This document shows positions 10,686 to 63,580 of a stretch of 64,000 bases of DNA, piece after piece. Source of the DNA: Clostridia bacterium (GTDB taxonomy: Bacteria; Bacillota; Clostridia; Oscillospirales; Acutalibacteraceae); the NCBI GenBank assembly GCA_017395425.1, contig JAFPUM010000034.1, positions 26,739 through 90,738 of the forward strand, in the 5' to 3' direction. Positions within the stretch are counted from its first letter, which is position 1. Each line of letters begins with the position of its first letter. The notes below the pieces were generated by a model. The model was not told the DNA's origin. It made no database searches and saw only the letters and a list, made by a program, of their open reading frames with translations. A program made the position numbers and the translations under genes.

Positions 10686-10687
10686 AT

Positions 10688-10729
10688 AGTGATTAGTGAT
10701 CAGTGATTAGTGATTAGTGAGGAGTGGGG
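10688..10729 (+). repeat. Six tandem 7-nt units in the murE-murF spacer
   Basis: AGTGATT AGTGATC AGTGATT AGTGATT AGTGAGG AGTGGGG, read directly. Starts 3 nt after the murE stop. Confidence 0.85.
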
Positions 10730-12113: not shown

Positions 12114-12305
12114 TTAGCCGCGTTTTTTTCCCAGGCGGCGGGGATTCCAAAGGGACGAGTCCCTTTGGCAGGTCAAGGGCAGCGCCCTTGCAGGAACCGG
12201 GGCAGCGCCCCGGCAGGCAGCACAACGTGCTGCCGGGCGAATCGCGCTAAGATCAACAACGGGGAAGGGCGAATCCGGAAAAGCAACCCTCCCACAAAGA
12301 TTTTT
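12112..12305 (+). repeat. Multi-hairpin intergenic element, copy A
   Basis: Non-coding 190-nt insert between murF and mraY, collinear with 26607-26792. Hairpins at 12117-12139, 12147-12168, 12174-12190, 12197-12213 and 12216-12234. Confidence 0.8.
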
Positions 12306-12369
12306 TCCCCCCTACCCAAAATTGTAAAACATCAGAGAAATTAAAAAAACATAAGGATGGTAATGGCAA

Positions 12370-16257: not shown

Positions 16258-18363
16258 TTGTGGGGAGATGTGAATTACTTGGGAGGTAAAAAGAAAAAGA
16301 AGAACCGTATGAATACGAGCTATGCGGGCAAATCGGGCAAGTCGGTCAGAACGGGGGGAACCAATCCTTCGGTTCCCTCTGCGGCGCAGGATAAATATGC
16401 CAAATACGCGGGAGCGGTGAGCAATAAATCCAAGCGCAATTATGCCGATCTGCGGCTGGTCAGTCCCTCCGAACTGCGGGGGAATCCTGTTTCGTCGGTA
16501 CCGTCGGTTGCAAACGGCGGTACTAAAAAAACGCCGGGACAGCCCGTGAAGAGCAGCGGCGCCAAAAAGCCTTCGGGACAGCCCATGAAGAGCGGCAGTG
16601 CCAAGAAGCCTTCGGGACAGCCCGTGAAGAGCGGCAGTGCCAAGAAGCCTTCAGGACAGCCCGTGAAGAGCGGCAGTGCAAAAAAATCTTCGGGACAGCC
16701 CGTGAAGAGCGGCAGTGCCGGGAGCAGGAAACCGATCAGACAGCCCATGCACACCGTCTCCGGAAACATAACACAATCGGTGAATCAGCAGTTTCGCGGC
16801 GGCAAACGGGGGAACATCCAAAGAGCGCCATCCAAGCCATCCAAGCCCCATACCAGACCGACACCCGAAGTCAAAGCACCGGTATATGCCGACGACGAAT
16901 ACAGCCGTGCGCTGAACAATTCGGATTTTTACGGCGATCTGGTGGAAAAATATTACATCAAGTACCCCGAGAAGCAGGAGGAGCGCAAATCAGCTCCGGG
17001 GTCTGCGGCGGCAAGGGAACGTGCCGCGCGGCGCAAGGTGCGCAGAAGCCCGATGGAATCGGTGGTGAGTGAGGGCACCGCCAAAAAGGAAGGTCAAGCC
17101 AGGGACGCACGTCCCTCCATCGCGGAACTGGCGGTCAGAAACCGCGGCACCGATCGGAAAAAGCAGTACGCAAAGGTGGTCAAGACGGGTAAAGCAAAAG
17201 GCAGCATTCCCACGGGTTCGGTACATCGGAAAGTACGCCGCATCAACCGTCAGCGGAGCCTGTTTCTCTACGCGGCTTCGGCAGCGTCCGTGGTAGCGGT
17301 GCTGTGTTTTCTGTTTTTCTTCTGGGGATTCAAGGTCAAGCAGATTGTGGTAGAAGGTGAAACGCCTTACAGTGATAACCGCATTACCTCGCTCTGCGAT
17401 TTCACGCAGGGAGACAATCTGATGTTCATTGATACCGCCGTGTCGGAACGTCAGGTGGTGGAATCGCTGCCGTATGTGGAAACCTGTAAGGTGAAACGCG
17501 CCATTCCCCATTCAGTGGAAGTCAATGTAACCTGTGCGGTGCCGCTGGGTGTGGCGGAGGCAGGCAGTGCCGAATGGGTGATTGTGAGCACCAGCGGCAA
17601 GATTCTGGAAAGCGTTTCCGCGGCGGCGGTGGTGAGCGGAAGTGATCTGGGCGATACGGGTGTATCGACGGCATACACGGCGCAGGAACTGGCAGCCGCC
17701 CGGAAACTGCCGGTACTGGTAGGACTGGAGATGGATCAGGTCAATGTCGGCAGCTTTGTCAACGGCAGTTCCGTGGCAACGGTCAACGGTTTTGCCTGCA
17801 TCTATGAGGAAGCGCAGGCACTCGGTCTGACGCTGGATAAGCTCAAGTACACCGACCGGGGATATGAAGCGGAATATGACGGCAGAATCAATATCGTGCT
17901 GGGCGATACCGATGACCGCAGCATTATCCGGAAGCGACTGGAAATCATCCATCATATCATGTTCGTCAAGTGTGACATCAGCGAGCATGAACGGGGCGAG
18001 ATTACCTATCTGAAAAATCAGATTTTCTTCGATCCCACCTATGACTTCTCGGAAGAGGAACTCGCCAAGTATGCCGAAAAACAGGCAGCAAAACAGAAGA
18101 AAGAAAATTCCCTCGGCAAGCTGGGTGAAGCCGCCGTATCGCTGCTCGATGAAGGCGTGAGCCTGCTGCACCGGGAGAATACCACTACGGCAGCCACTAC
18201 CAAGACCACAGCCGCCAAGACTACGGCAGCCACTACGAAGACCACAGCCACTACCAAGACCACAGCCGCTACAGCGAAGATAACAACTGCTGCTGAAACC
18301 ACCACATCCGAAACCACCGCGGCACAAACGGCAGCATCCGCCACGACAGCGGCAGGGCAGTGA
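16258..18363 (+). CDS. ftsQ: FtsQ/DivIB-like cell division protein with a long repetitive N-terminal extension
   Basis: TM segment (LFLYAASAASVVAVLCFLFFFWGF) followed by a POTRA-like region (VKQIVVEGETPYSDNRITS...). In the position between murG and ftsZ. Start uncertain (16258 or ATG 16309). Confidence 0.75.
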   Translation: MWGDVNYLGGKKKKKNRMNTSYAGKSGKSVRTGGTNPSVPSAAQDKYAKYAGAVSNKSKRNYADLRLVSPSELRGNPVSSVPSVANGGTKKTPGQPVKSSGAKKPSGQPMKSGSAKKPSGQPVKSGSAKKPSGQPVKSGSAKKSSGQPVKSGSAGSRKPIRQPMHTVSGNITQSVNQQFRGGKRGNIQRAPSKPSKPHTRPTPEVKAPVYADDEYSRALNNSDFYGDLVEKYYIKYPEKQEERKSAPGSAAARERAARRKVRRSPMESVVSEGTAKKEGQARDARPSIAELAVRNRGTDRKKQYAKVVKTGKAKGSIPTGSVHRKVRRINRQRSLFLYAASAASVVAVLCFLFFFWGFKVKQIVVEGETPYSDNRITSLCDFTQGDNLMFIDTAVSERQVVESLPYVETCKVKRAIPHSVEVNVTCAVPLGVAEAGSAEWVIVSTSGKILESVSAAAVVSGSDLGDTGVSTAYTAQELAAARKLPVLVGLEMDQVNVGSFVNGSSVATVNGFACIYEEAQALGLTLDKLKYTDRGYEAEYDGRINIVLGDTDDRSIIRKRLEIIHHIMFVKCDISEHERGEITYLKNQIFFDPTYDFSEEELAKYAEKQAAKQKKENSLGKLGEAAVSLLDEGVSLLHRENTTTAATTKTTAAKTTAATTKTTATTKTTAATAKITTAAETTTSETTAAQTAASATTAAGQ
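16522..16716 (+). repeat. In-frame 39-bp tandem repeat x5 inside ftsQ
   Basis: Encodes (S/T)(A/K)KKPSGQP(V/M)KSG units. Copies start at 16522, 16561, 16600, 16639 and 16678. Confidence 0.9.
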
Positions 18364-25301: not shown

Positions 25302-26598
25302 AAGACTGCTGGCGCTGGCGTTGGCGGCAGCGCTGCTGGGGAGTGTATGTGCCTGCGGCAGCGGGAAACCATCGGGCGGCGTGAAGCTGTCGGACAGCAC
25401 GACGGAGCTGACCGCTCCTATCGTGCGCTCGAAAAAAGCATTGCGCGGGAAGCAGGATGACGGGCAGAAATATGGGTTTGACTGGCAATACTGGGGATTT
25501 TCCGCTGCCCTTCTGAGGAACGTCACCCGGCAGGACGGGGGTCGGGAAAATACCCTTGTGTCACCGCTGTCAGTGATGACAGCGCTGGCGATGACTGCCA
25601 ACGGCGCGTCGGGCGATACGCTCACCCAGATGGATATGGCACTGTGCGGAGATATGATCGCGCTCGACAGTATGAAGCCTTTGGATAGGGACGGGCGCAA
25701 TTCATGTCTGGGCGCGTATCTCGACAGTCTGCCGCACAGCGGTAAGGCGTCGCTCTCTTCCGCGAATTCTGTCTGGCTCAAAGAGGGCGCGCTGAACGTC
25801 AAAAAAGACTTTCTGCAAACCAATGTCGATGCCTACAACGCGCAGGTGTTTTCGACGGCGTTCGATGAGAATACCCGGAATGACATCAACCGCTGGGTAT
25901 CGCTCAGAACCGGCGGCAGAATTGAAAACATGCTGGACGACATTCATCCCAATGCTGTGATGTATCTCATCAACGCGCTGACCTTTGATGCGGAGTGGCA
26001 GGATATCTACCGCGAGGAACAGGTGTTCGACGGCGAGTTTACCGATATCGACGGCAAGGTGCAGACTGTACCTATGATGCGTTCGGAGGAAAGGGTCTAT
26101 CTGGACGACGGCATGGCGACCGGCTTTGTCAAGCCCTATGCGTCGGGCTACAAATTTGTGGCGATGGTGCCGAATGAGGGTGTGACGCTGCAAGAGTATG
26201 TGGAAAAACTGCCGGTTTTCCAGCTGTTCCCGCAGCTTCGCGAAGATGACGGCGAAACGGTGATGGTCAGCCTGCCGAAGTTCAGCGCGACGTATTCCGT
26301 GGAACTCAGCGACGCGCTGAAAGCGATGGGTATGACCGACGCCTTTGACCCCGGTAGAGCGGATTTCTCGGATATGGCGGACGCGAAACCGGATGATCTG
26401 TATATCGGGCGGGTGCTGCATCAGACCGCGATTGCGGTGGACGAGAAGGGTACCAAGGCAGGCGCGTCCACGGCGGTAGAAATGCTCACAAAAGGTGCCA
26501 TTTTGCGCACGGTTTTTCTTGACAGACCGTTCCTCTATATGATTGTGGACGAAGACAATGGGCTGCCGGTCTTTATCGGACAGGTGACGCATTTTTAG
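25279..26598 (+). CDS. Serpin (serine protease inhibitor), predicted lipoprotein
   Basis: Lipoprotein signal MKHQKICKRLLALALAAALLGSVCAC. Serpin hinge and reactive-centre loop EKGTKAGASTAVEMLTKGAILRTVFLDRPF. The track ORF from 25159 was trimmed to ATG 25279 (or 25273). Overlaps the rluA 3' end by about 23 nt. Confidence 0.85.
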   Translation: MKHQKICKRLLALALAAALLGSVCACGSGKPSGGVKLSDSTTELTAPIVRSKKALRGKQDDGQKYGFDWQYWGFSAALLRNVTRQDGGRENTLVSPLSVMTALAMTANGASGDTLTQMDMALCGDMIALDSMKPLDRDGRNSCLGAYLDSLPHSGKASLSSANSVWLKEGALNVKKDFLQTNVDAYNAQVFSTAFDENTRNDINRWVSLRTGGRIENMLDDIHPNAVMYLINALTFDAEWQDIYREEQVFDGEFTDIDGKVQTVPMMRSEERVYLDDGMATGFVKPYASGYKFVAMVPNEGVTLQEYVEKLPVFQLFPQLREDDGETVMVSLPKFSATYSVELSDALKAMGMTDAFDPGRADFSDMADAKPDDLYIGRVLHQTAIAVDEKGTKAGASTAVEMLTKGAILRTVFLDRPFLYMIVDEDNGLPVFIGQVTHF

Positions 26599-26606
26599 AG
26601 AAGCCC

Positions 26607-26792
26607 AATTAGCCGCGCAGCGGCGCGGGGTGCAGGGGGTGAGCTCCCTGCCGAGGTCAAGGGCGAGTAGCCCTTGCAGGGGACCGGGGGCAGCGCCACC
26701 GGTAGGCAGGCGGAAGCCTGCCGAGCGAGATGAGTCAAGATCTATAACGGGGTCGGGCGAATTCTTTAACAGAACCCTCCCAAACAGATTTC
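26607..26792 (+). repeat. Multi-hairpin intergenic element, copy B
   Basis: Collinear with 12112-12305. Hairpins at 26613-26628, 26632-26651, 26658-26676, 26684-26702 and 26705-26722. Confidence 0.8.
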
Positions 26793-26804
26793 TCCGACAA
26801 CCAT

Positions 26805-26833
26805 TTGACGTGGAGAAATGCCTGTGCTATAAT
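26805..26833 (+). promoter_or_regulatory. Candidate promoter of the PHP phosphatase gene
   Basis: -35 TTGACG (26805-26810), extended -10 TGcTATAAT (26825-26833), 17-nt spacing between the hexamers. Confidence 0.6.
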
Positions 26834-26869
26834 CAAAAAGCGATACGTTAAGGAAAGAAGCCGATCACC

Positions 26870-27670
26870 ATGAATCTTTTAAAAATCCCCTGTGACTGTC
26901 ATCTGCACACCGACAATTCGTTTGACAGCGAAACCCCCGCCGCGCTTCAGGTGGCAAGAGCGCGGGAACTGGGCATTCCGTATATTGCGCTGACCGATCA
27001 TTGCGATATTCTCGAATGGAGCGACGCGAATATTGCCAGATCCAACGCGCAGGCGATGGAACTCAACGCCCTGTATGACGACATCACCGTGCTGCGGGGT
27101 ATCGAACTCGGAGAACCGCTGCAGGATATGGACGAAACGTCCCGCGCGCTGGGGCTCTGTGAGTACGATTTCGTGCTTTGCTCGCTGCACAACATTCAGG
27201 GCGAGGAAGATTTTTATTACCTCCACCCCGATCGTTCGCAGGCTGCCGAATTGGTCAGGCGGTATTTTGAAGAACTGTTGGAAATGGTGAAGTGGAACCA
27301 GTTCGATTCCCTCGCCCATCTGACCTATCCCTTGCGCTACATCACCGAGCGGGACGGCGTGCCGGTGGATATGACACCTTACCTGCCCATCATCCGTGAA
27401 ATTTTAGCCACTCTCGCCGCGAACGGCAAGGCGCTGGAAATCAATACCTCCGGTTTGCGCAACCCCGACGGTATGCTGCTGCCGACGGGGGATTATGTGG
27501 AACTGTTCCGCCGGCTGGGGGGACGTTATATCACCCTCGGCAGCGACGCTCACACGCCGGAGCATCTGGCGGTGGGCATGGCGGAAGGCATCGCCGCCGC
27601 GAAGGAAGCGGGCTTTACGGCTGTGACGGTTTTCATCAACCGGCAGCCCGTGGAGATACCGTTTGCGTGA
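26870..27670 (+). CDS. Histidinol-phosphatase, PHP (HisJ) family
   Basis: CDCHLHTDNSFDS metal-binding start, later LTDH and GSDAH motifs typical of PHP phosphoesterases. 266 aa. Confidence 0.8.
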   Translation: MNLLKIPCDCHLHTDNSFDSETPAALQVARARELGIPYIALTDHCDILEWSDANIARSNAQAMELNALYDDITVLRGIELGEPLQDMDETSRALGLCEYDFVLCSLHNIQGEEDFYYLHPDRSQAAELVRRYFEELLEMVKWNQFDSLAHLTYPLRYITERDGVPVDMTPYLPIIREILATLAANGKALEINTSGLRNPDGMLLPTGDYVELFRRLGGRYITLGSDAHTPEHLAVGMAEGIAAAKEAGFTAVTVFINRQPVEIPFA

Positions 27671-33975: not shown

Positions 33976-35427
33976 TTGTTGGATAAACTGAATGAAGAAT
34001 GCGGCGTATTCGGCATTTACGGGGCAGATGAAAACCGGGTGGTGCAGCTGACCCATCTGGCGCTGTATGCCATGCAGCACAGGGGACGCGACGGCGCGGG
34101 AATGGCTGTCACCGACAGCGAATTCATCTACGCCTATAAGGATCTGGGCTGGGTGGCGGATGTCTTTACCCCGAAGGTGCTGCGGCATATCAAGCCCGGA
34201 CACATCGCCATCGGTCATGTGCGCAATTCCCGCAAAGCGGTGGTGGAGCGGTTTGCCGCCCAGCCGCTGGTCATGCGCTATATGAAGGGCTCCATGGCGC
34301 TTGCCAACAACGGCGCACTGGTCAACGGCTACGAAATGCGCACAGCGCTCGAACATGACGGCGCGATGTTCCAGACGTCGAGCGACGCGGAAATTTTTGC
34401 CTATCTGATTGCCCGGAAACGTGTGAAATCTTCGTCACTGGAAAAAGCCGTTGTGGAAGCGATGGACGACATTCAGGGCGCCTATTCGATGGTGATTCTC
34501 GGACGTCACAAACTGATTGCCGTGCGCGACCCGCGGGGAATGCGTCCGCTGTCGCTCGGCAGAATCGGCGACGACTGCTGGGTAGTGGCAAGCGAGACCT
34601 GCGTCTTTGACGGCATCGGGGCGGAACTGGTGCGGGATATCGAGCCGGGCGAAGTGCTGATGATCGACGAAAAGGGGCTGCACTCCGACCGCACACATTG
34701 CGGCAAACAGACGCCCGCGCTTTGCATTTATGAGTATGTCTATTTTGCCCGACCCGATTCGGTCATTAACGGCAAGAGCGTACACGAGGTGCGGCTGGAC
34801 ATCGGACGGCTGCTTGCCAAAGAACACCCGGTGGATGCCGATCTGGTGTGCGGCGTGCCGGATTCGGGCATTTCGGCGGCGATCGGCTATTCGCTGGGCA
34901 GCGGCATTCCCTATGGTACCGCGCTGGTGAAGAATAAATATATGTCGCAGGCGCATCTGCCCAAGAACGACGATGTCCTTCAGGAACTGGCGCTCAAATG
35001 CAAGCTCAATGTGCTGGAGGCGGTCATCCGGGGAAAACGGGTCATTCTGATCGACGATTCCATCATCAAGGGCATGACCGCGCGGCATATTATCAACCTG
35101 CTGCGTCAGGCGGGCGCGACGGAGGTGCATCTGCGCATTTCGTCACCGCCGGTCTTTAACACCTGCTACTTCGGCACGACCATCAATGACCGCGGTTCGC
35201 TCATTACCAGCACCATGAAGGTGGAGGAAATCTGCGCGGCGGTAGGCGCCGATTCACTGGGCTTTGCCTCGGTGGAGGGCATCCATTCCCTGCCCGGTGT
35301 GGATTGCATGGGCATCTGTGACGCCTGCTTTACGGGGCATTATCCCATGCCCATCAGTGAGAAGGAGCATTTTGACAAGTACCAGCAGAAGATCGGCGAA
35401 TCCAAAGACGGCGATTCCAAAGATTAA
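33976..35427 (+). CDS. purF: Amidophosphoribosyltransferase (PurF)
   Basis: Short propeptide then the catalytic Cys (LNEECGVFGIYG). PRPP-binding VILIDDSIIKGMT. TTG start. Confidence 0.95.
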   Translation: MLDKLNEECGVFGIYGADENRVVQLTHLALYAMQHRGRDGAGMAVTDSEFIYAYKDLGWVADVFTPKVLRHIKPGHIAIGHVRNSRKAVVERFAAQPLVMRYMKGSMALANNGALVNGYEMRTALEHDGAMFQTSSDAEIFAYLIARKRVKSSSLEKAVVEAMDDIQGAYSMVILGRHKLIAVRDPRGMRPLSLGRIGDDCWVVASETCVFDGIGAELVRDIEPGEVLMIDEKGLHSDRTHCGKQTPALCIYEYVYFARPDSVINGKSVHEVRLDIGRLLAKEHPVDADLVCGVPDSGISAAIGYSLGSGIPYGTALVKNKYMSQAHLPKNDDVLQELALKCKLNVLEAVIRGKRVILIDDSIIKGMTARHIINLLRQAGATEVHLRISSPPVFNTCYFGTTINDRGSLITSTMKVEEICAAVGADSLGFASVEGIHSLPGVDCMGICDACFTGHYPMPISEKEHFDKYQQKIGESKDGDSKD

Positions 35428-35470
35428 CCAATAGCCAATCATCAACCCATTTCAGGAGGTTTGAACCTAT

Positions 35471-36520
35471 ATGAGCAGCACAAACAGTTACAGCAAAAGC
35501 TACAAGGAAGCGGGCGTGGATGTAACCGCCGGCTATCGCTCGGTGGAACTCATCAAGGAACACGTCGCACGCACCAATATCCCCGGCGTGGTTTCGGGCA
35601 TCGGGGGGTTCGGCGGACTTTTTGAGCCGGACTTCTCCGGCATGAAGACTCCCACGCTGGTATCCGGCACCGATGGCGTCGGCACCAAGCTGAAAATCGC
35701 GTTCCTCATGGACAAGCATGATACCGTGGGTATCGACTGCGTTGCCATGTGCGCCAACGACGTGGCGTGCAGCGGCGCCCAGCCGCTTTTCTTCCTCGAC
35801 TATCTGGCGGTGGGCAAGAATATCCCCGAAAAAATCGCGGAGATTGTCAGCGGCGTGGCGGAAGGCTGCGTGCAGGCGGGCTGCGCGCTGATCGGCGGCG
35901 AAACCGCCGAAATGCCCGGCTTCTATCCGCCGGAAGAATATGACCTCGCGGGCTTCTGCGTAGGTCTGGCGGATAAGGAAAAGATCGTGGACTGTGCCAA
36001 TGTCAAGGCGGGTGATACCCTGATCGGCGTGGCTTCCACGGGACTGCACTCCAACGGCTTTTCGCTGGTGCGCTCCACCCTGCGTCCGAGCGCGCAGAAT
36101 ATCCGCACCCACATCGACGAATTCGGCAAGACGCTGGGCGAGGAATTGATTACCCCCACGCGAATTTATGTCAAGTCGGTGCTGGCGCTCCAGCAGGCTG
36201 TGAAGGTACACGGCATTTCCAATATCACGGGCGGCGGCTTCTATGAGAACATTCCGCGTATGCTGCCCGACGGTCTGATGGCGCGTGTGGAGCGCAAGAC
36301 CGTCAAGGTGCTGCCGGTGTTTGACTATATCCAGAAGATGAGCGACGGGAAGATTGACGATCACGATATGTTCAACACCTTCAACATGGGCGTGGGACTG
36401 GTGGTCGCGGTTGACCCGAGTGAGGTTGACGTCGCTATTGCCACGCTGAAAGCCAGCGGTGAGGACGCGTATGTCATCGGCGAAGTGATTCACGGCACCG
36501 AGGGTGTGAAGATATGCTGA
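35471..36520 (+). CDS. purM: AIR synthetase (PurM)
   Basis: [14 protein letters not shown] and GGETAEMPG motifs. 349 aa. Confidence 0.95.
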
Positions 36521-37155
36521 AAACCAAACACATCGCGGTCTTTGTATCGGGCGGCGGTACCAACCTGCAAGCCCTGATTGACGCACAGGCGCGCGGCGAA
36601 ATCAAGTACGGCGAGATTACCTTTGTCCTTGCCAGCAATGACAGGGCATACGCGATCGAACGCGCCAGGAAAGCCGGTATCGAATACGAAGTGGTATCCC
36701 GCAAGGCATACGCTGACAGCGAAGCATACGACGCGGCGATTCTCGCCGCGCTGGAACACCGGAGCATTGACCTCATTGTGCTGGCGGGATTCCTCTCCAT
36801 TCTCGGACCCTCCGTCATTGAGAAATACCGCAACCGGATTATCAATATTCATCCCTCCCTGATACCGCTCTTCTGCGGCGACGGCTTTTACGGCAAGAAG
36901 GTACACACCGCCGTACTCGCGAGCGGCATGAAGGTAACGGGCGCGACGGCGCACTTCGTCAACGAAATCACCGACGGCGGCGCGATTATCCTGCAAAAGG
37001 CGGTTCCCATCGAGCAGGGCGACAACGAGGATATTCTGCAATACCGCGTGATGCGGCAGGCGGAGTGGGAGATACTGCCCAAAGCGGTGAGCCTTTTCTG
37101 TGAGGAACGGATACGGATTGACGGAAACCGGACAGAAATAGTGAATAATGAATAG
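36514..37155 (+). CDS. purN: GAR formyltransferase (PurN)
   Basis: [23 protein letters not shown] and GATAHFV motifs. Start overlaps the purM end. The last codons (IVNNE) and the stop lie in the heptad repeat. Confidence 0.93.
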
Positions 37156-37197
37156 TGAAGAGCGAATAATGAATAATGTCGGAAGTCCTTCGGACTT
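37140..37197 (+). repeat. 7-nt tandem repeats plus hairpin (locus 1)
   Basis: AGTGAAT AATGAAT AGTGAAG AGCGAAT AATGAAT AATGTCG (37140-37181), then hairpin AAGTCC-TTC-GGACTT (37183-37197). Confidence 0.85.
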
Positions 37198-37227
37198 GAA
37201 TAGATAGAACATAAAGGAGCGTTTGTT

Positions 37228-37494
37228 ATGCCGGAAAATGAAGTGGTCGAATTCAAATTTGACACGCAGCTTTTGATTGAAGGTCACGACCTCGACGAAG
37301 ACGCGATTTACGATTATATCACAGAGCATTTCAAGGGAGACTGCCTGCTGGCGGTCGGCGACGAGGATCTGATCAAGATTCACTTCCACACCAACGAACC
37401 GTGGCTGGTGCTGGAATACGGCGCGTCGCTGGGCGAGATTCACGATATTGTCGTGGAGAATATGCAGCTGCAAGCGGAGGGAATGCACGGATAA
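37228..37494 (+). CDS. Small protein (88 aa) resembling the middle domain of DAK2-type kinases (FakA/YloV-like)
   Basis: AAAGGAG upstream. The GDCLLAVGDEDLIKIHFHTNEPW...IVVENMQLQ pattern resembles the GDS..V....vHvHT..Pg...IENM..Q signature I recall from FakA/YloV proteins. Confidence 0.5.
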   Translation: MPENEVVEFKFDTQLLIEGHDLDEDAIYDYITEHFKGDCLLAVGDEDLIKIHFHTNEPWLVLEYGASLGEIHDIVVENMQLQAEGMHG

Positions 37495-37517
37495 GTCCCG
37501 TTGGGAGCAGGGAGTTG

Positions 37518-38102
37518 ATGATTCAAATGGAAGCCGTGAATTACGCCTTTGACATCGTCGAAGAGGAAACCACCGACAATGGGTTTGTGAAGCACGGATT
37601 CCGTTATCAGCTTCACGACAGGATTCAATGGGGCAATATGCTGTGCATTGTGCTGGCGGGTGTTCTGACCGGCATTTTGCGGCAGCAGTTTGGCTGGAAC
37701 GGGACGGTCAGTGTGATTTGCCTGACGGTTTCCGCGGTGCTGCTGCTGGCGGGATTCAGTCTGATGCAGGGCTGGGAAATCTTCTGGGCGGTCGGCTACT
37801 GCTGGCGGGACGGCGATGTGACCGTGATCCAATGCGGCGGGCAGGAATGCCGTATCGCGTCGGTCAAGGAACTGACCGGCGGTGATACGCGGTTTTTCTT
37901 CGCCGGATGTTCCGTGTTCAGCATTGTGACCGATAGGGATGTATTTGAAATCTACTCGCTCCCGCTGAAAGCAGCCGAGCAATTCGAGGATTCTTCGGTT
38001 TATCCGCTTTTTCAGATGGTGCTGGATGGCTATCCCTATTTGGAATCGGTGGAATTGCCCGGACAAAAGACGAAGTACAGATATGTAAGAATCGATAAAT
38101 AA
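37518..38102 (+). CDS. Hypothetical two-TM membrane protein
   Basis: ATG 37518 after GGGAG. Hydrophobic segments MLCIVLAGVLTGIL and VSVICLTVSAVLLLAGFSLM. No recognisable family. Confidence 0.5.
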   Translation: MIQMEAVNYAFDIVEEETTDNGFVKHGFRYQLHDRIQWGNMLCIVLAGVLTGILRQQFGWNGTVSVICLTVSAVLLLAGFSLMQGWEIFWAVGYCWRDGDVTVIQCGGQECRIASVKELTGGDTRFFFAGCSVFSIVTDRDVFEIYSLPLKAAEQFEDSSVYPLFQMVLDGYPYLESVELPGQKTKYRYVRIDK

Positions 38103-38125
38103 TGAGATAAAGGAGACATACAACA

Positions 38126-38833
38126 ATGGAACTCATCCATTACGCCAAGGAAATCGGCGCGACCACCTATCCCGGCAGAGGCATTCTGCTTGGCAAGAGC
38201 AAGAGCGGGAAGTACGCCGTCATCGCTTACTTTATCATGGGCAGAAGCCAGAACAGCCGTAACCGCATTTTTACCCCGCAGGAGGACGGCATCCGCACGG
38301 AAGCCTTCGACCCCTCCAAGCTGGTGGATCCCTCGCTCATCATCTATGCGCCGGTGCGCGTGCTGGGCGACGATACCATCGTGACCAACGGCGACCAGAC
38401 CGACACCATTTATGATTTCATGGCACAGGGCAAGACCTTTGAGGACGCGCTCAGAACCCGTACCTTCGAGCCCGACCCGCCCAACTATACCCCCCGCATC
38501 AGCGGTATTGTCCATAAGAACGGCGACTATCAGCTTTCCATCTTAAAGAGCGCCAACGGCAATCCCGATTCCGCGCAGCGCTTCTTCTTTGATTACAACG
38601 ACACCCCCGCCGGTCAGGGACACTTCATTCATACTTACAAGTGTGACGGCAATCCCATTCCAAGCTACGAGGGCGAACCCACATGGGTCGAAATCGACAC
38701 CGACTCCATTGACGAATTCACCGACACGGTGTGGAACGCGCTGAACGAGGATAACAAGGTTTCCCTTTTTACCCGCTTCATCGAACTGGCAACGGGCGAA
38801 ACGGAGACAAGCATTGTCAACAAGAATGTGTGA
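38126..38833 (+). CDS. IMP cyclohydrolase, PurO-like (archaeal type)
   Basis: YPGRGILLG, GRSQNSRNR, VTNGDQTDTI and EPDPPNYTPRISG align by eye with archaeal PurO motifs. 235 aa. Confidence 0.8.
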   Translation: MELIHYAKEIGATTYPGRGILLGKSKSGKYAVIAYFIMGRSQNSRNRIFTPQEDGIRTEAFDPSKLVDPSLIIYAPVRVLGDDTIVTNGDQTDTIYDFMAQGKTFEDALRTRTFEPDPPNYTPRISGIVHKNGDYQLSILKSANGNPDSAQRFFFDYNDTPAGQGHFIHTYKCDGNPIPSYEGEPTWVEIDTDSIDEFTDTVWNALNEDNKVSLFTRFIELATGETETSIVNKNV

Positions 38834-38857
38834 TTGAGAAAGGATTGGTAAAATAAC

Positions 38858-40033
38858 ATGAACGAAATGATGCTCAAATACGGCTGCAACCCCAACCAGA
38901 AGCCTTCCCGCATTTTCATGGAGGACGGCAGCGAACTGCCCATTGAAGTACTCAACGGCAAGCCCGGTTATATCAACCTGCTCGACGCGTTCAACAGCTG
39001 GCAGCTCGTCAGCGAACTCAAGAAGGCGACCGGCTATTGCGCGGCGGCTTCCTTCAAGCACGTCAGCCCCGCGGGCGCGGCGATTGGTACCCCTCTCTCC
39101 GACGTGCTGAAAAAGATTTATTTCGTGGATGATCTGGAACTCTCTCCTCTTGCCTGTGCCTATGCCAAGGCACGCGGCGCGGACAGAATGTCGAGCTACG
39201 GCGATTTCATCGCGCTCTCCGACGTGTGCGACGTACCCACCGCCAAGATGATTCAGCGCGAAGTCTCCGACGGCGTGATTGCCCCCGGCTATGAACCCGA
39301 AGCGCTCGAAATCCTCAAATCCAAGCGCAAGGGTACGTATTGCATTATCCAAATGGACGAAAATTACAAGCCCGCCGAAATCGAGCGCAAGCAGGTGTAC
39401 GGCGTGACCTTCGAGCAGGGTCGTAACGAGCTGGTCATTGACGACGCTATGATGAGCAATATCGTCACCGAGTGCAAGGACCTCCCCGAGACCGCGAAGC
39501 ACGACCTCATCATTTCGCTCATTACCCTGAAATACACCCAGTCCAACTCCGTCTGCTACGTCAAGGACGGTCAGGCGATCGGCGTGGGCGCGGGTCAGCA
39601 GTCGAGAGTGCATTGCACCCGTCTCGCCGGCAACAAGGCGGACAACTGGTATCTGCGCCAGCATGAGAAGGTGCTGAATCTGCCCTTTAAGGCGGACATC
39701 CGCCGTCCCGACCGCGACAATACGATTGACGTCTACATCAGCGACGATTACGACGACGTACTCCGCGACGGCACATGGGAACTCTTCTTCACCGAAAAGC
39801 CCGAACCGCTCACCAAGGAAGAAAAGAAGGCATGGCTTGCGACCATGAGCGGCGTATCTCTCGGCAGTGACGCGTTCTTCCCCTTTGGCGACAACATCGA
39901 ACGCGCCAAGAGAAGCGGCGTGCAGTACATCGCGGAGCCGGGCGGTTCTATCCGTGACGACAACGTCATCGAGACCTGCAACAAGTACGGCATGACGATG
40001 GTCTTTACGGGGATTCGTCTGTTCCATCACTAA
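38858..40033 (+). CDS. purH: AICAR formyltransferase (PurH, transformylase domain only)
   Basis: KYGCNPNQ, SFKHVSPAG, GVGAGQQSRV and GSIRD motifs of the AICARFT domain. No MGS-like IMP cyclohydrolase domain. 391 aa. Confidence 0.9.
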   Translation: MNEMMLKYGCNPNQKPSRIFMEDGSELPIEVLNGKPGYINLLDAFNSWQLVSELKKATGYCAAASFKHVSPAGAAIGTPLSDVLKKIYFVDDLELSPLACAYAKARGADRMSSYGDFIALSDVCDVPTAKMIQREVSDGVIAPGYEPEALEILKSKRKGTYCIIQMDENYKPAEIERKQVYGVTFEQGRNELVIDDAMMSNIVTECKDLPETAKHDLIISLITLKYTQSNSVCYVKDGQAIGVGAGQQSRVHCTRLAGNKADNWYLRQHEKVLNLPFKADIRRPDRDNTIDVYISDDYDDVLRDGTWELFFTEKPEPLTKEEKKAWLATMSGVSLGSDAFFPFGDNIERAKRSGVQYIAEPGGSIRDDNVIETCNKYGMTMVFTGIRLFHH

Positions 40034-40068
40034 CAGCGCGTTGTGCGTGCGCTCGCATTCGTTCGCTA

Positions 40069-40117
40069 AGTGAATGGTGAATAATGAATAGTGAATAATG
40101 GCGGAGCGCTGCGCGCT
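40069..40117 (+). repeat. 7-nt tandem repeats plus hairpin (locus 2)
   Basis: AGTGAAT GGTGAAT AATGAAT AGTGAAT AATGGCG (40069-40103), then hairpin AGCGC-TGC-GCGCT (40105-40117). Shares the 19-mer GTGAATAATGAATAGTGAA with locus 1. Confidence 0.85.
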
Positions 40118-40182
40118 GAATGTATTTTTTGGTGTCGCGGCGCTTTTTGCTGAAATGACTCATCGAAAGGATTGACACAATC

Positions 40183-41466
40183 ATGACATATCTGGTAGTG
40201 GGCGGCGGCGGTCGTGAACACACGATTATCCGCAAGCTCAAGGAAAGTCCCGACGTGGACAAAATCTACTGCACGCCGGGCAACGGCGGCATTTCCAAGG
40301 ATGCGGAAGTGTTCGATGTCGCCGCGACGGATATTGACGGCGTGGTGGCGCTCGCCAAAGAACTCGCCGTGGACTGCGTATTCGTCGCGCCGGATGACCC
40401 GCTGGTACTCGGCATGGTGGACGCGCTCAACGAACAGGGCATCCGTGCCTTCGGTCCCAACAAGAAAGCCGCCATTATCGAGGGGAGCAAGGTTTTCTCC
40501 AAGGAACTCATGAAGAAATACGGTATTCCCAGCGCGGCGTATGAGGTGTTCGACAACCCCAAGGCGGCACTGGACTACATTCAGACCCGCGACAGCTATC
40601 CGGCAGTCGTGAAAGCGGACGGTCTGGCGCTCGGCAAGGGCGTGGTCATCGCCGAAAATTTCGAGGAAGCCAAAGCCGCGATTCATTCCATTATGGAGGA
40701 TAAAATTTTCGGCAATTCCGGCAATCATATTGTCATTGAGGAATTTCTGACCGGTCCCGAAGTGTCGGTGCTGGCGTTTACCGATGGTCACTGCGTCAAG
40801 CCGATGGTTTCGTCGATGGATCACAAGCGGGTGTTCAACGGCAATCTCGGTCCCAACACGGGCGGCATGGGCACCATCAGCCCCAACCCCTATTACACCG
40901 ACGAAGTGGCGCAGGAGTGCATGGACAAAATCTTCCTGCCCACCATTCATGCCATGAACGCCGAGGGCAGAACCTTCAAGGGTTGTCTCTATTTCGGACT
41001 CATGATTACGCCGAACGGTCCCAAGGTCATCGAATACAACTGCCGTTTCGGCGACCCGGAGGCGCAGGTGGTACTGCCCCGCCTCAAGACCGATTTTTCC
41101 CGGATCGTCAACGCGATTATCGACGAAAAGCTTTCCGATCTCGACATCGAATGGGACGACGGCGCGTGCGCCTGTGTCATTATGGCTTCCGGCGGTTATC
41201 CGGGGAAGTATGAGAAGGGCATCGAAATCACCGGTCTGGACAAGAACGGTCAGGTGGAAGGCGCGACGGTGTACCATGCCGGAACCAAATGCTCCGAATT
41301 TGCGGGCGGCGGCTTCCTTACCAACGGCGGACGCGTGCTGGGTGTGACCGCGAAGGGCGCCAATCTCGATGAGGCGCTGGCAAACGTCTATGCCGCGGTG
41401 GACAAAATCCGGTTCAAGGGCGCGCATTACCGCACGGATATCGGCAGAGCGTACAAGAAATCATGA
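40183..41466 (+). CDS. purD: GAR synthetase (PurD)
   Basis: VVGGGGREH, ATP-grasp core, GPNTGGMG. 427 aa. Confidence 0.95.
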   Translation: MTYLVVGGGGREHTIIRKLKESPDVDKIYCTPGNGGISKDAEVFDVAATDIDGVVALAKELAVDCVFVAPDDPLVLGMVDALNEQGIRAFGPNKKAAIIEGSKVFSKELMKKYGIPSAAYEVFDNPKAALDYIQTRDSYPAVVKADGLALGKGVVIAENFEEAKAAIHSIMEDKIFGNSGNHIVIEEFLTGPEVSVLAFTDGHCVKPMVSSMDHKRVFNGNLGPNTGGMGTISPNPYYTDEVAQECMDKIFLPTIHAMNAEGRTFKGCLYFGLMITPNGPKVIEYNCRFGDPEAQVVLPRLKTDFSRIVNAIIDEKLSDLDIEWDDGACACVIMASGGYPGKYEKGIEITGLDKNGQVEGATVYHAGTKCSEFAGGGFLTNGGRVLGVTAKGANLDEALANVYAAVDKIRFKGAHYRTDIGRAYKKS

Positions 41467-46296: not shown

Positions 46297-46439
46297 CGCC
46301 GTTCCGCATATTCTGACGGTGGAAAATAAACCGTCAATCGTGAATCTTTCACAATTATGCCGGTGATGTTTTGGACAATTGTGTGGTTTTCACGGTTGAC
46401 AAATTTTCCACCGTATGATTTAATAATATAAGTCAGAAA

Positions 46440-46600
46440 TCAGCGCCTGCCCCTGACCTTGATAGGGTTCAAAAAAATTGTCAGGGGGACGAGGATGGAA
46501 GTTTATCGAAAGATTCGGCGGATGCTTCCCGGCTTGACAGAGGAGCTGCCATCCGGCACACAAATCCCGCGGGCAACGGCGGGGACAAACGTGCCGGAAC
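46440..46600 (+). ncRNA. glmS leader: glmS ribozyme (GlcN6P-responsive self-cleaving riboswitch)
   Basis: A|GCGCC cleavage-site context at 46442/46443. Core GACGAGGATGGAAGTTTATCGAAAGATTCGGCGGATGCTTCCCGGCT closely matches the conserved glmS core. GGCG (46517-46520) can pair with CGCC (46444-46447). P4-like CCGGCAC (46553-46559) pairs with GTGCCGG (46591-46597). Immediately upstream of glmS. Confidence 0.85.
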
Positions 46601-46627
46601 TCTGTGATACAATGGAGGTACTTATCT

Positions 46628-48439
46628 ATGTGTGGTATTGTAGGTTACATCGGTGACAAGAATTCCACGGAAATCCTGATCGACGGTCTGAAAAAGCTGG
46701 AGTACAGAGGCTATGACTCCGCCGGCGTGGCAGTCTTCGGAGCGGACGGCGTGAATGTTGTCAAGGCGAAGGGACGTATCAAGAATCTCGAAGACAAGAT
46801 CGGCGAAAATGTGCCGCAGGGCGTGTGCGGTATCGGTCACACCCGCTGGGCGACCCACGGAGCGCCCTCCGATGTCAACAGCCACCCCCATCGCAGTGGC
46901 AAGGTCACGCTGGTGCATAACGGCATTATCGAAAATTACTCCGAACTGCGCGAGGAAATGCGTGCCGAAGGGCGCGTGTTTGTCTCCGAGACCGACACCG
47001 AAGTGGCGGCGCAGCTCATCGACAAGTGCTATGCGGGCGACCCCATCGCGGCGATTTATGACGCAGTGGCGCAGATTCGCGGTTCCTACGCGTTCGGCAT
47101 TCTGTTTGACGATCAGCCCGACGTGCTGTATGCCATCCGCAAGGACAGCCCGCTGATTGTGGGCATCGGTGAAGGCGAGAATTATATCGCCTCCGACATT
47201 CCCGCGATTCTCAGCCGCACCAACCAATACTACCTGCTCGAAGAAAACGAGCTGGCGATTATCCGCGCGGACAGCATCGAGATTCTCGACTGCGAAAAAG
47301 CGCCGATTCAGAAGGAAGTCTTCAAAGCCACATGGGATGTGTCGGCAGCCGAAAAGGGCGGCTATGATCACTTCATGCTCAAGGAAATCAACGAGCAGCC
47401 CAAGGTGCTGGCGGATACGATTCTTCCCCGTCTCAAGGACGGCGCCGCACATATCTTTGCAGAAGAAATGCCCGACATCTCCAAAATCAAGCGGCTGCAC
47501 GTCGTCGCCTGCGGTTCGGCGCTCCATGCCGGCATGGTGGGACGGCACATGATTGAAAAAATCGCCAAGGTGCCGGTCATGACCGAAGTCGCCTCGGAAT
47601 TCCGGTATTCGTCGCTGCTCTTTGAAGAGGGTGACGCGGTGGTGCTGATTTCCCAGAGCGGCGAAACCGCCGACACGCTGGCAGCACTGCGCATTGCCAA
47701 GAAGAGAGGCATTCCGACCATTGCCATTGTCAACGTCGTCGGTTCCACCATTGCCAGAGAAGCCGACATCGTGCTTTACACATGGGCAGGTCCCGAAATC
47801 GCCGTTGCCACGACCAAGGCATACACCTGTCAGGTGGCGGTCATGCTGCTGATGGCACTGCGGTTTGCGAGCGAGCGCGGCACGGCTTCCGCGGAGGAAC
47901 TGGCGCATTATGCCGACCTGCTGCGGCAGATTCCCGATGTGGTGGCAGGTCAGCTCACCCATATGGAAGAATATGAAGCCATTTCGCAGCATTACAAGGA
48001 CTGTGAGGATCTCTTCTTCATCGGACGCGGCTATGACGCGGCGCTCTGCTGGGAAGCGTCCATCAAGCTCAAGGAAATCTCCTACATTCACTCGGAAGCA
48101 TACGCGGCGGGCGAACTCAAGCACGGCACCATTTCGCTGATTGAACCGGGTATGCCGGTAGTGGCGATTGCCTCGGGCGACCGGCTCTTTGAAAAGACGG
48201 TCAGCAACGTCAAGGAAGTCAAGGCACGCGGCGCGAAGGTCGTTCTGCTCTGCAAGGAGGGCGCGAACGTGGACAGCACCGTGTACGATGACCTGATTGC
48301 CATTCCCGCCGTGGACGAATTCATCCGTCCCATTGCGGCGATTGTCCCGCTTCAGATTTTTGCCTATTACACCGCTGTCGCGCGCGGCTGTGACGTGGAT
48401 AAGCCGAGAAACCTTGCCAAGTCCGTAACGGTCGAATAA
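46628..48439 (+). CDS. glmS: Glutamine-fructose-6-phosphate aminotransferase (GlmS)
   Basis: N-terminal MCGIVGYIG catalytic Cys, two SIS domains, C-terminal KPRNLAKSVTVE. Confidence 0.97.
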   Translation: MCGIVGYIGDKNSTEILIDGLKKLEYRGYDSAGVAVFGADGVNVVKAKGRIKNLEDKIGENVPQGVCGIGHTRWATHGAPSDVNSHPHRSGKVTLVHNGIIENYSELREEMRAEGRVFVSETDTEVAAQLIDKCYAGDPIAAIYDAVAQIRGSYAFGILFDDQPDVLYAIRKDSPLIVGIGEGENYIASDIPAILSRTNQYYLLEENELAIIRADSIEILDCEKAPIQKEVFKATWDVSAAEKGGYDHFMLKEINEQPKVLADTILPRLKDGAAHIFAEEMPDISKIKRLHVVACGSALHAGMVGRHMIEKIAKVPVMTEVASEFRYSSLLFEEGDAVVLISQSGETADTLAALRIAKKRGIPTIAIVNVVGSTIAREADIVLYTWAGPEIAVATTKAYTCQVAVMLLMALRFASERGTASAEELAHYADLLRQIPDVVAGQLTHMEEYEAISQHYKDCEDLFFIGRGYDAALCWEASIKLKEISYIHSEAYAAGELKHGTISLIEPGMPVVAIASGDRLFEKTVSNVKEVKARGAKVVLLCKEGANVDSTVYDDLIAIPAVDEFIRPIAAIVPLQIFAYYTAVARGCDVDKPRNLAKSVTVE

Positions 48440-63562: not shown

Positions 63563-63580
63563 AGCGGAGGAACCTCCAAG

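What the first reader, a model, noticed from the sequence alone, without database searches (positions are those of the whole stretch)
37140..37207. Heptamer array plus hairpin overlapping the purN stop codon
AGTGAAT AATGAAT AGTGAAG AGCGAAT AATGAAT AATGTCG encodes the last residues of PurN (IVNNE) and its TAG (37153-37155), which is immediately followed by TGA. The array then continues into a hairpin AAGTCC-TTC-GGACTT and GAATAG. The same module recurs at 40069-40125 with a 19-nt identical core (GTGAATAATGAATAGTGAA). The flanks (AATG-NCGG ... GAAT) are the same there, but the stem is different and still pairs (AGCGC-TGC-GCGCT). A weaker possible member (AACCAAT AGCCAAT CATCAAC, 35426-35446) overlaps the purF stop, and the murE-murF array (10688) is a variant. 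All sit exactly at gene junctions within operons.
Basis: partly seen in the sequence, partly recalled or inferred. Interest (0 to 1): 0.65.

Follow-up and report, generated by a model that had tools for sequence, protein, structure and literature searches.

The report
Stop-rich heptamer repeat plus hairpin
A 7-base repeat full of stop codons, followed by a small hairpin, sits on the end of purN and recurs before purD; it is one copy of a very abundant, slippage-prone repeat module of ruminant-gut Clostridia, a new variant of the known bacterial intergenic heptamer repeats, and its function is not proven.

Summary
In 64 kb only three strong period-7 arrays exist: 10687-10726, 37140-37178 and 40069-40100. 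All lie on the gene strand at cistron junctions. The proposed purF member is at chance level.

The unit RTGAATA (TAATGAA/TAGTGAA) is two stop codons plus one base, so all three frames close within about 14 nt. PurN reads into the array and ends at TAG-TGA, gaining three residues over its relatives.

Close strains keep both pur arrays but differ by exactly one unit, which indicates replication slippage. Array words are about 100 times deeper than the flanks in bovine and sheep gut metagenomes. An RNA contig spans the purN array and hairpin.

In Clostridia MAGs the array is joined by a conserved linker (AATTRMGG) to a GC hairpin with covarying stems and a GATTTT tail. A covariance model found 28 hits in 297 kb. 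It found 4 in 553 kb of other phyla and 0 in 501 kb of related pur loci.

At purH-purD the small hairpin is the 5' arm of a terminator-like hairpin.

The best reading is a transcribed post-stop spacer-hairpin module, with function inferred only. Closest known are intergenic heptameric SSRs (TAACTGA, GGGAATC) and, in layout only, the Gut-1 RNA motif.

The parts
37140..37178 (+). Heptamer array 1 (about 5.5 units of RTGAATA-type; one C only). It overlaps the last four codons and the stop of purN.
   Evidence: Unpaired in the MFE folds. Two alleles differing by one AATGAAT unit in 10 near-identical strain contigs.
37153..37158 (+). In-frame tandem stops TAG TGA of purN, supplied by the array. The stops at 37142, 37146 and 37153 close all three frames.
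   Evidence: Relatives' PurN ends ...TEII* directly before the next gene's Shine-Dalgarno (SD, ribosome-binding) sequence.
37175..37182 (+). Linker AATGTCGG between array and hairpin (family consensus AATTRMGG)
37183..37197 (+). Hairpin AAGTCC-TTC-GGACTT, with no U tract after it
   Evidence: dG -7.5, z -1.55. Best covariance-model hit in the window is 37169-37205. L206 carries G>A at the closing pair.
37198..37203 (+). 3' tail GAATAG (family consensus GATTTTAA). The SD AAAGGAG at 37213-37219 and the ATG at 37228 of the 88-aa gene follow.
40069..40100 (+). Heptamer array 2 (4.5 units, no C), starting 36 nt after the purH stop (40031-40033)
   Evidence: Four other strains carry 7 more bases here. 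Word depth 780-2670 against 7-20 in the flanks.
40097..40121 (+). Linker AATGGCGG, small hairpin AGCGC-TGC-GCGCT (40105-40117) and GAAT
   Evidence: covariance-model hit 40091-40125, E 0.0015. Other metagenome contigs share the sequence up to 40118 and then diverge.
40104..40148 (+). Terminator-like long hairpin (40104-40120 pairs with 40128-45) ending in a T run (40144-40148). It uses the small hairpin as its 5' arm.
   Evidence: dG -25.6 kcal/mol, z -3.9, 0 of 200 shuffles as stable. Strain differences fall in its loop (40121-40126), not in its stems.
40034..40054 (+). GC-rich segment that can pair with 40104-40118, enclosing the array. This is a possible competing (antiterminator-like) fold; its significance is uncertain.
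   Evidence: fold of 40028-40122: dG -38.1, z -3.0. Inference only.
10687..10726 (+). Variant array (TAGTGAT)x5 between the murE stop (10683-10685) and the murF ATG (10737). Its last degenerate unit supplies the SD GAGGAG (10719-10724). No module hairpin follows.
   Evidence: Word depth 560-1600 against 7-12 in the flanks, and the same length in two other strains.
35426..35446 (+). Proposed weak member at the purF stop: not a member
   Evidence: 9 of 14 period-7 matches, as in 58 other blocks. Not reported by TRF.

Best explanation
What it is (well supported):
- It is a transcribed, slippage-prone heptanucleotide simple-sequence repeat. The unit RTGAATA equals TAATGAA/TAGTGAA, that is, two stop codons plus one base.
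- It lies on or just after the stop codon of the upstream cistron.
- A conserved linker joins it to a short GC hairpin and a GAAT/GATTTT tail.
- It is one copy of a high-copy, lineage-restricted array-hairpin module of gut and rumen Clostridia.
- It belongs to the general class of intergenic heptameric SSRs.

How it most likely works:
- At the DNA level the array grows and shrinks in 7-nt steps by replication slippage (shown by strain alleles).
- On the operon mRNA the array closes all three reading frames within about 14 nt (shown from the sequence). It is nearly C-free and is predicted to be unpaired.
- I infer that it serves as a spacer that ends translation of the upstream cistron in every frame. 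It would keep ribosomes off the adjacent hairpin and uncouple the two cistrons.
- I infer that the hairpin is an intercistronic or 3'-end RNA structure. At purH-purD it is part of a leaky intrinsic terminator or attenuator. At purN it would be a non-terminating stabiliser or processing stop.
For: - Non-random arrays on the gene strand at junctions.
- PurN's stop lies inside the array, and PurN is three residues longer than its relatives.
- One-unit alleles at both pur arrays in otherwise near-identical strains.
- RNA contig X27 record 17 covers 37108-37290 without a difference, so array and hairpin are co-transcribed with both genes.
- The arrays are unpaired in the folds.
- The 45 nt downstream of arrays are structured in Clostridia: median z -1.89, with 47% below -2. 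In other phyla the median is 0.19, with 18% below -2.
- Covariance model R1 gave 28 hits in 297 kb of Clostridia loci plus the window. It gave 4 in 553 kb of other phyla and 0 in 501 kb of related pur loci.
- Hairpin pairing is 94.9% against 60% in shuffles, with 51 two-sided changes against 17.5 expected.
- 12 of 28 copies lie within 60 nt behind a co-oriented open frame of at least 100 codons. Inverted pairs lie between convergent genes.
- 40104-40148 is terminator-like. Relatives often carry a plain hairpin plus U run at the purH-purD junction.
- Published heptameric SSRs behave the same way. They lie on the sense strand within 50 bp of stop codons, are transcribed, vary in length and form inverted pairs (PMC4692102). 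TAACTGA repeats give stops in all frames (PMC4679880).
Against: - No RNA 3'/5'-end or ribosome data exist. Only assembled RNA contigs could be laid, so termination, processing and ribosome exclusion are untested.
- The purN hairpin is weak (z -1.55) and has no U tract.
- The canonical terminators of this genome carry no arrays.
- An array/inverse-array hairpin follows an untranslated tmRNA gene, so stopping ribosomes cannot be the whole story.
- Only 12 of 28 copies lie directly behind a long co-oriented frame.
- Across all phyla the orientation bias is mild.
- Unit number is not held constant.
So this heptamer has not been shown to be special outside Clostridia.
Confidence: 0.5

Rival explanations
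1. Neutral or selfish by-product. A/T-rich heptamers seeded by tandem stops (TAA TGA A) expand by polymerase slippage wherever non-coding DNA tolerates them. Stops in every frame confine them to gene ends. The hairpins are ordinary terminators or stabilisers that happen to be neighbours. There is no function of its own.
For: - One-unit polymorphism in close strains.
- Absent from orthologous junctions of relatives.
- Permuted heptamer SSRs are similarly frequent in viral contigs.
- Heptamers are the over-represented SSR class in bacteria, attributed to slippage (PMC4692102, citing Mrazek 2007).
- Arrays lie on either side of canonical terminators.
Against: - The conserved linker AATTRMGG and tail GATTTTAA across many genera, with covarying stems, are not expected from slippage alone.
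- The array-to-hairpin association is specific to Clostridia.
- Array presence and unit sequence are retained at the same junctions in all 14 strain contigs seen.
Confidence: 0.2
2. Binding platform for an RNA-binding protein. The protein would read repeated UGAAU units and control attenuation or translation at junctions, in the manner of TRAP, HutP, S1 or cold-shock proteins. Gut-1-type RNAs (GUGAAAU between hairpins) could be decoys for the same protein.
For: - Regularly spaced identical single-stranded units next to a terminator, with a competing fold, at purH-purD.
- The Gut-1 consensus has the same layout and lies beside module copies in L096.
- MacGregor proposed such binders for TAACTGA repeats (PMC4679880).
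Against: - No candidate protein was identified.
- The period of 7 does not fit TRAP (triplets every 5-6 nt, my knowledge).
- The position where HutP would need UAG is A or G about equally.
- Unit number varies freely.
- Neighbouring genes are unrelated: mur, pur, tmRNA, tRNA.
- No Gut-1 in the window or in 20 other module-bearing loci.
Confidence: 0.12
3. RNase processing site plus 5' stabiliser. An endonuclease such as RNase Y would cut in the A/U-rich, G-punctuated array. The hairpin would then become the protective 5' end of the downstream cistron's mRNA, giving the operon segments different stabilities.
For: - Single-stranded A/U-rich array immediately 5' of a hairpin, inside three operons.
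- RNase Y's preference for A/U-rich sites after G, and 5' stem-loop stabilisation in Firmicutes, are established (my knowledge, not tested here).
Against: - Many copies have no downstream co-oriented cistron: convergent pairs and after tmRNA.
- The mur array has no hairpin.
- An RNA contig spans array 1 intact.
- No end mapping is available.
Confidence: 0.1
4. DNA-level mobile element (REP/MITE-like), spread by a transposase or by recombination, with the hairpin as recognition structure.
For: - High copy number.
- Lineage-specific presence at junctions that are compact in relatives.
- Inverted pairs.
- The same AGCGC-TGC-GCGCT variant occurs at several metagenome loci.
- One good copy in a Sedimentisphaerales MAG.
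Against: - Stems differ widely within one genome, so there is no common recognition sequence.
- No target-site duplications or terminal inverted repeats are evident at the window copies.
- No transposase lies nearby in the window.
Confidence: 0.08

Closest known systems
Intergenic heptameric simple-sequence repeats of bacteria (GGGAATC in Xanthomonas, GGGGAYT in Nostoc; Rehm et al. 2015, PMC4692102; over-representation of heptamers noted by Mrazek et al. 2007 as cited there)
   Same: - 7-nt tandem units, 2 to about 25 copies.
- Intergenic, between co-oriented ORFs.
- On the sense strand within 50 bp of, or overlapping, the stop codon.
- Transcribed.
- Length varies between close strains.
- Inverted pairs between convergent genes.
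   Different: - The unit is A/T-rich and stop-rich, not G-rich, so it has no quadruplex potential.
- In Clostridia it is fused to a conserved linker-hairpin-tail module.
- The carriers are gut Firmicutes.
TAACTGA direct repeats of Beggiatoaceae, cyanobacteria and Bacteroidetes (MacGregor 2015, PMC4679880)
   Same: - The heptamer is built from two stop codons plus one base.
- Stops in all three frames.
- Can overlap the end of the upstream ORF.
- Abundant and intergenic.
- Function unknown; post-transcriptional binders have been proposed.
   Different: - The unit sequence differs.
- TAACTGA sets lie mostly a few nt upstream of start codons without an SD. Only the murE-murF array resembles that.
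- No hairpin module has been described for them.
Gut-1 RNA motif (Rfam RF01706; Weinberg et al. 2010, PMC2864571)
   Same: - Same layout: RUGAAWU heptamers flanking short GC hairpins with UUCG-type loops and covarying stems.
- Gut microbiome origin.
- Found beside module copies in rumen MAG locus L096.
   Different: - Gut-1 has three hairpins, each separated by a single GUGAAAU, with no tandem array.
- The Rfam model does not match the window even at E 10.
- Gut-1 was classed as a free-standing ncRNA, not as a post-stop element.
Rho-independent (intrinsic) terminators / intercistronic attenuators
   Same: GC hairpin after a gene end. 40104-40148 has a 17-bp stem and a U run. The family tail is GAUUUU.
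   Different: - The purN copy has no U tract.
- The tail starts with GA.
- The canonical terminators of this genome lack arrays.
- Activity is untested.
GTGATTA heptanucleotide repeat of Helicobacter pylori (van Belkum et al., as cited in PMC4692102)
   Same: Same unit as the murE-murF array when rotated: (GTGATTA)n equals (TAGTGAT)n.
   Different: Known to me only from that citation. The organism and context are unrelated, and no comparison was made here.

Membership tests
Intergenic heptameric SSR (long simple-sequence repeat) | At least 3 head-to-tail copies of a 7-nt unit, beyond chance | tested here: met
   TRF and period-7 scans. 19-mer chance expectation 0.01.
Intergenic heptameric SSR (long simple-sequence repeat) | Unit-number polymorphism between close strains (slippage) | tested here: met
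   Array 1 has 4 short and 6 long alleles differing by AATGAAT. Array 2 is 7 nt longer in 4 strains. The mur array is unchanged in 2 strains.
Intergenic heptameric SSR (long simple-sequence repeat) | Many copies per genome, in non-coding DNA near ORF ends | tested here: inconclusive
   3 arrays in 71 kb of this scaffold. Array words are about 100 times deeper than the flanks in metagenomes, but no complete genome of the carrier was available.
TAACTGA-type stop-rich repeats | Unit TAACTGA | tested here: not met
   Units here are RTGAATA and TAGTGAT.
TAACTGA-type stop-rich repeats | Stops in all three forward frames. Most sets lie a few nt upstream of a start codon. | tested here: inconclusive
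   Stops in three frames: met. Proximity to a start codon: only the mur array, 10 nt before the ATG and containing the SD. The pur arrays are 49 and 82 nt upstream.
Gut-1 RNA (RF01706) | Score at or above the Rfam gathering threshold (50 bits) | tested here: not met
   No Gut-1 match in 36900-40300 even at E<=10, nor in the whole window at gathering. The positive control in L096 scored 72.4 bits.
Gut-1 RNA (RF01706) | Three hairpins, each flanked by GUGAAAU | tested here: not met
   The window copies have one hairpin after a tandem array of UGAAUA units.
Intrinsic terminator | Stable GC-rich stem-loop immediately followed by a U run | tested here: inconclusive
   Met at 40104-40148. Not met at 37183-37197, which has no U run and z -1.55. 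The family tail is GAUUUU.
Intrinsic terminator | Transcripts end there | not testable with these tools
   Only assembled RNA contigs were available. One spans array 1 completely.
Protein-bound repeat attenuators (TRAP, HutP type) | Repeat geometry: TRAP needs (G/U)AG every 5-6 nt; HutP needs UAG-N4 triplets (my knowledge) | tested here: not met
   Period 7 excludes TRAP. The HutP-equivalent position is UAA as often as UAG.
Protein-bound repeat attenuators (TRAP, HutP type) | Cognate RNA-binding protein encoded by carriers | not tested
   No candidate in the window. No genome-wide co-occurrence analysis was possible.
REP/MITE-like mobile repeats | Conserved hairpin sequence within a genome, terminal inverted repeats or target duplications, associated transposase | tested here: not met
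   Stems differ between copies of one genome. No duplications at the window copies. No transposase in the neighbourhood. Carrier genomes were not surveyed.

The most novel reading that the evidence does not exclude
Gut and rumen Clostridia may use single-stranded UGAAU/UGAAAU heptamers next to hairpins as a general post-transcriptional code. An as yet unknown RNA-binding protein would read it. Arrays at cistron ends would be its mRNA targets, tuning termination, coupling or stability. Unit number would be adjustable by slippage. The orphan Gut-1 RNAs would be decoys for the same protein.
Probability: 0.1. Interest if true: 0.8.

Novelty: new variant of a known kind. Interest (0 to 1): 0.42.

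Why it matters
Intergenic heptameric repeats have been known for years in cyanobacteria, Xanthomonas and Beggiatoaceae, without a function.

- This window shows a stop-rich version in ruminant-gut Clostridia that is fused to a conserved, covarying hairpin module. In the metagenomes examined, the array words are roughly 100 times deeper than the single-copy flanks.
- If the module insulates or attenuates cistrons, it is a widespread and tunable element of operon expression in important fibre-degrading bacteria.
- Even if it is neutral, it matters in practice. It breaks metagenome assemblies, its unit-number alleles are ready-made strain markers, and it extends protein C-termini (PurN).
- It also gives the orphan Gut-1 motif a host (a rumen Clostridia MAG) and a possible relative.

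Tried and rejected
- Rfam: no family matches the window modules at the gathering threshold or at E<=10.
- Orthologous conservation: 80 metagenome loci with PurN relatives (52-84% identity) contain no arrays and no module hits. Deep comparative analysis of these junctions was therefore impossible.
- Is this heptamer special? Two permuted control heptamers gave 80 and 98 viral stretches. No enrichment over other A/T-rich heptamer SSRs could be shown.
- MAFFT/RNAalifold on 26 module copies gave no structure, because the stems differ in length. This was solved with a 6-sequence seed and a covariance model.
- Extending the hairpin into the linker and tail (A/U pairing with a GA bulge): only about 64% of cells pair and there is no covariation, so it was rejected as a defined helix.
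- K-turn, CsrA (GGA), Hfq (ARN), DnaA-box and CRISPR-repeat resemblances were considered by eye and dropped because the signatures do not fit.
- RNA depth across purH/purD is confounded by cross-species mapping and contig depth, so it was not used.
- One encoding-contig look-up failed and one found nothing. One script call was lost.

Full report
**Observation**

- 37140-37178 reads AGTGAAT AATGAAT AGTGAAG AGCGAAT AATGAAT AATG.
- The purN ORF (36514-37155) reads into it (…T E I V N N E). It stops at TAG 37153-37155, followed in frame by TGA.
- Then come the linker AATGTCGG, the hairpin AAGTCC-TTC-GGACTT (37183-37197) and GAATAG.
- The 19-mer GTGAATAATGAATAGTGAA recurs exactly at 40077. Chance expectation is 0.01.
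- There it sits in a second array (40069-40100) with the same flanks: AATGGCGG, AGCGC-TGC-GCGCT, GAAT.
- A (TAGTGAT)x5 array fills the murE-murF spacer (10687-10726).

A period-7 TGA scan finds exactly these three arrays, all on the + strand. They are the only blocks with at least 12 of 14 period-7 matches in 64 kb. The proposed purF member reaches 9 of 14, like 58 other blocks, so it is chance.

About 45 gene junctions are present in the window and three carry arrays. A further 7.3 kb of the same scaffold has none.

**Anatomy**

- The unit RTGAATA, read as TAATGAA or TAGTGAA, is two stop codons plus one base. Because 7 is not a multiple of 3, all three frames are closed within about 14 nt (from the sequence).
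- The arrays are almost free of C and stay unpaired in MFE folds.
- The purN hairpin is small (dG -7.5, z -1.55) and has no U tract.
- At purH-purD the small hairpin is only the 5' arm of a 17-bp hairpin, 40104-40145, followed by TTTTT. Its dG is -25.6 and z is -3.9, with 0 of 200 shuffles as stable. It resembles the canonical terminators seen elsewhere in this window.
- Before that 3' arm is transcribed, 40034-40054 can pair with 40104-40118 and enclose the array (dG -38.1, z -3.0). This is a possible competing fold whose meaning I cannot judge.
- In the mur spacer, the last degenerate unit supplies the Shine-Dalgarno (ribosome-binding) sequence GAGGAG, 12 nt before the murF ATG.

**Source and close strains**

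The window is part of a 117-kb metagenome scaffold. Runs that hold it are bovine, sheep and other gut metagenomes.

- Ten contigs encoding the identical 88-aa downstream protein have near-identical flanks. They carry two array-1 alleles that differ by one AATGAAT unit: 4 short and 6 long.
- One of them has a G>A change at the hairpin's closing pair.
- At array 2, the orthologous contigs of four other strains are all 7 nt longer than the window. Their substitutions fall in the terminator loop, not in its stems.
- The mur array has the same length in two strains.

The arrays are therefore retained at these junctions but change unit number, as expected for replication slippage.

**Relatives**

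Eighty metagenome loci encode PurN relatives at 52-84% identity.
- They contain no such arrays in 569 kb.
- There, purN (…TEII*) is followed directly by the ribosome-binding site of the IMP cyclohydrolase gene.
- The window lineage has therefore gained the array, three extra PurN residues and two extra ORFs.
- Several relatives have a plain hairpin plus U run at purH-purD. An intercistronic hairpin there is ordinary; the array is the addition.

**Abundance and transcription**

- Laying metagenome contigs on the window gives word depths of 780-2670 over array 2 and 560-1600 over the mur array. The flanks show 7-20.
- Some contigs share the array plus AGCGCTGCGCGCT and then diverge.
- In a metatranscriptome, one contig covers 37108-37290 without a difference. 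Array and hairpin are therefore part of a purN-to-next-gene transcript.
- Transcript ends cannot be mapped from contigs.

**Wider distribution**

My rough uniform-composition expectation is about 35. The hits span Bacteroidota, Clostridia, Acidobacteriota, Cyanobacteria, Planctomycetota, Mesorhizobium, methanotrophs and others.
- It also hit the limit in viral contigs. Two permuted control heptamers gave 80 and 98 stretches there. I therefore cannot claim this heptamer is special among A/T-rich heptamer SSRs in general.
- Outside Clostridia, an array is often followed by its inverse complement, giving long hairpins. Orientation relative to the neighbouring genes is only mildly biased.

**The Clostridia module**

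In Clostridia MAGs (Ruminococcus, Ruminiclostridium, Oscillospiraceae, Acutalibacteraceae, Avispirillum, Christensenella and unnamed rumen bins), the array is followed by a linker, a GC hairpin and a tail.

- The 45 nt downstream are structured: median z -1.89, with 47% below -2 (n=47). In other phyla the median is 0.19, with 18% below -2 (n=99).
- A covariance model built from six copies gave these counts:

| Search set | Size | Hits at E<=1 |
|---|---|---|
| Clostridia loci plus window | 297 kb | 28 (22 outside the six-copy seed) |
| Other phyla, all with arrays | 553 kb | 4 |
| Related pur loci | 501 kb | 0 |

- In the window the model finds only 37169-37205 and 40091-40125.
- The six stem pairs are 94.9% paired against 60% in shuffles, and under 50% when the partners are slid. 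There are 51 two-sided changes against 17.5 expected. That alignment is fitted to the model and leans towards the structure.
- The consensus is RTGAATA-ATT-R-M-GG, then a stem closed by U·G or A-U with a UUC/UGC loop, then GATTTTAA.
- A helix between linker and tail is not supported.
- Twelve of 28 copies lie within 60 nt behind a co-oriented open frame of at least 100 codons. Five face a convergent frame of that size.
- Inverted pairs sit between convergent genes.
- One array/inverse-array hairpin follows a tmRNA gene.

**Known relatives**

- Rfam has no family for the window modules.
- In rumen MAG locus L096, the Gut-1 RNA motif (RF01706, 72.4 bits) lies beside module copies. Its consensus is CAaUGAAAU-hairpin-GUGAAAU-hairpin-GUGAAAU-hairpin-gUGAAAU. 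The layout is the same, but the window does not match the model, so this is a resemblance and not membership. Gut-1 has no known function (PMC2864571).
- The best-fitting described class is intergenic heptameric SSRs.
  - GGGAATC and GGGGAYT repeats are intergenic, lie on the sense strand within 50 bp of or overlapping stop codons, are transcribed, vary in length between close strains and occur as inverted pairs (PMC4692102).
  - TAACTGA repeats give stops in all three frames and can overlap ORF ends (PMC4679880).

**Interpretation**

Shown:
- a non-random SSR;
- slippage alleles;
- stops in all three frames;
- co-transcription;
- a lineage-restricted, covarying hairpin module;
- a terminator-like fold at purH-purD.

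Inferred: the array acts as an unstructured all-frame stop spacer that ends translation and keeps ribosomes off the hairpin. The hairpin acts as a leaky terminator or RNA-end stabiliser between cistrons.

Rivals, none excluded:
- a neutral slippage by-product beside ordinary hairpins;
- a platform for an RNA-binding protein, possibly shared with Gut-1;
- an RNase cleavage site plus a 5' stabiliser;
- a REP/MITE-like DNA element.

The tmRNA case, the free unit number and the lack of arrays at this genome's canonical terminators all caution against a strong functional claim.

**Verdict**

The feature is a new, Clostridia-specific variant (stop-rich unit plus conserved hairpin module) of a known kind of element. 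It is of moderate interest until RNA end mapping or reporter tests are done.

Noticed in passing
L096 3079-3153 (-), also 5082-5148 (-): The Gut-1 RNA motif (RF01706) scores 72.4 bits in a rumen Clostridia MAG (RGIG6112, sheep omasum). It was described in 2010 as 'human gut only' with no known host. Here it lies in a hairpin-rich non-coding region with six array-hairpin copies.
   Followed up: partly
window 12113-12370 and 26598-26870: Two intergenic regions share a conserved element of about 200 nt (76% column identity). One lies upstream of the mraY-like gene and the other upstream of the gene at 26870. Several GC hairpins differ in sequence but still pair. There is no Rfam match even at E 10. 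This may be an undescribed structured RNA or repeat.
   Followed up: partly
window 37228-37494 and 37518-38102: Two extra ORFs lie between purN and the IMP cyclohydrolase gene, and related pur operons lack them. One is an 88-aa protein consisting of a FakA-like middle domain (PF21645, E 4e-20). The other is a 194-aa protein with no Pfam match.
   Followed up: partly
L097 5099-5458 (+) and 5545-5641: A tmRNA gene is followed directly by a heptamer array and its inverse complement, forming a long hairpin. This is a likely ssrA terminator built from the repeat.
   Followed up: no
L002 from about 6670 to the contig end: A contig from another sample encodes the identical PurN. It diverges from the window right after AATAATGTCGGAAG and ends 60 nt later. 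It is either a strain with a different downstream neighbour or an assembly break or chimera at the repeat.
   Followed up: no
window 46431-46608 (+): glmS ribozyme (RF00234, 100.8 bits) upstream of the gene at 46604-48439.
   Followed up: no
window 16535-16719; 18191-18272; 63473-63565: In-frame tandem repeats of 39 nt (4.7 copies, 91% matches) and 18 nt inside or near large ORFs. They are probably repetitive protein segments.
   Followed up: no
L508 1-977 (same scaffold, about 7 kb upstream of the window): A Ro60/TROVE-vWA protein gene. Such genes are often accompanied by Y-RNA-like ncRNAs, which were not looked for.
   Followed up: no
L069 2928-2964 (-): One good module copy (34 bits) lies in a Sedimentisphaerales (Planctomycetota) MAG. 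It is the only convincing one outside Clostridia, so it may reflect transfer or mis-binning.
   Followed up: no
L184, L191, L193, L201, L202 purH-purD junctions: Related Clostridia carry a plain GC hairpin, usually followed by a U run, between purH and purD. This suggests a conserved internal attenuator or stabiliser in these pur operons.
   Followed up: no
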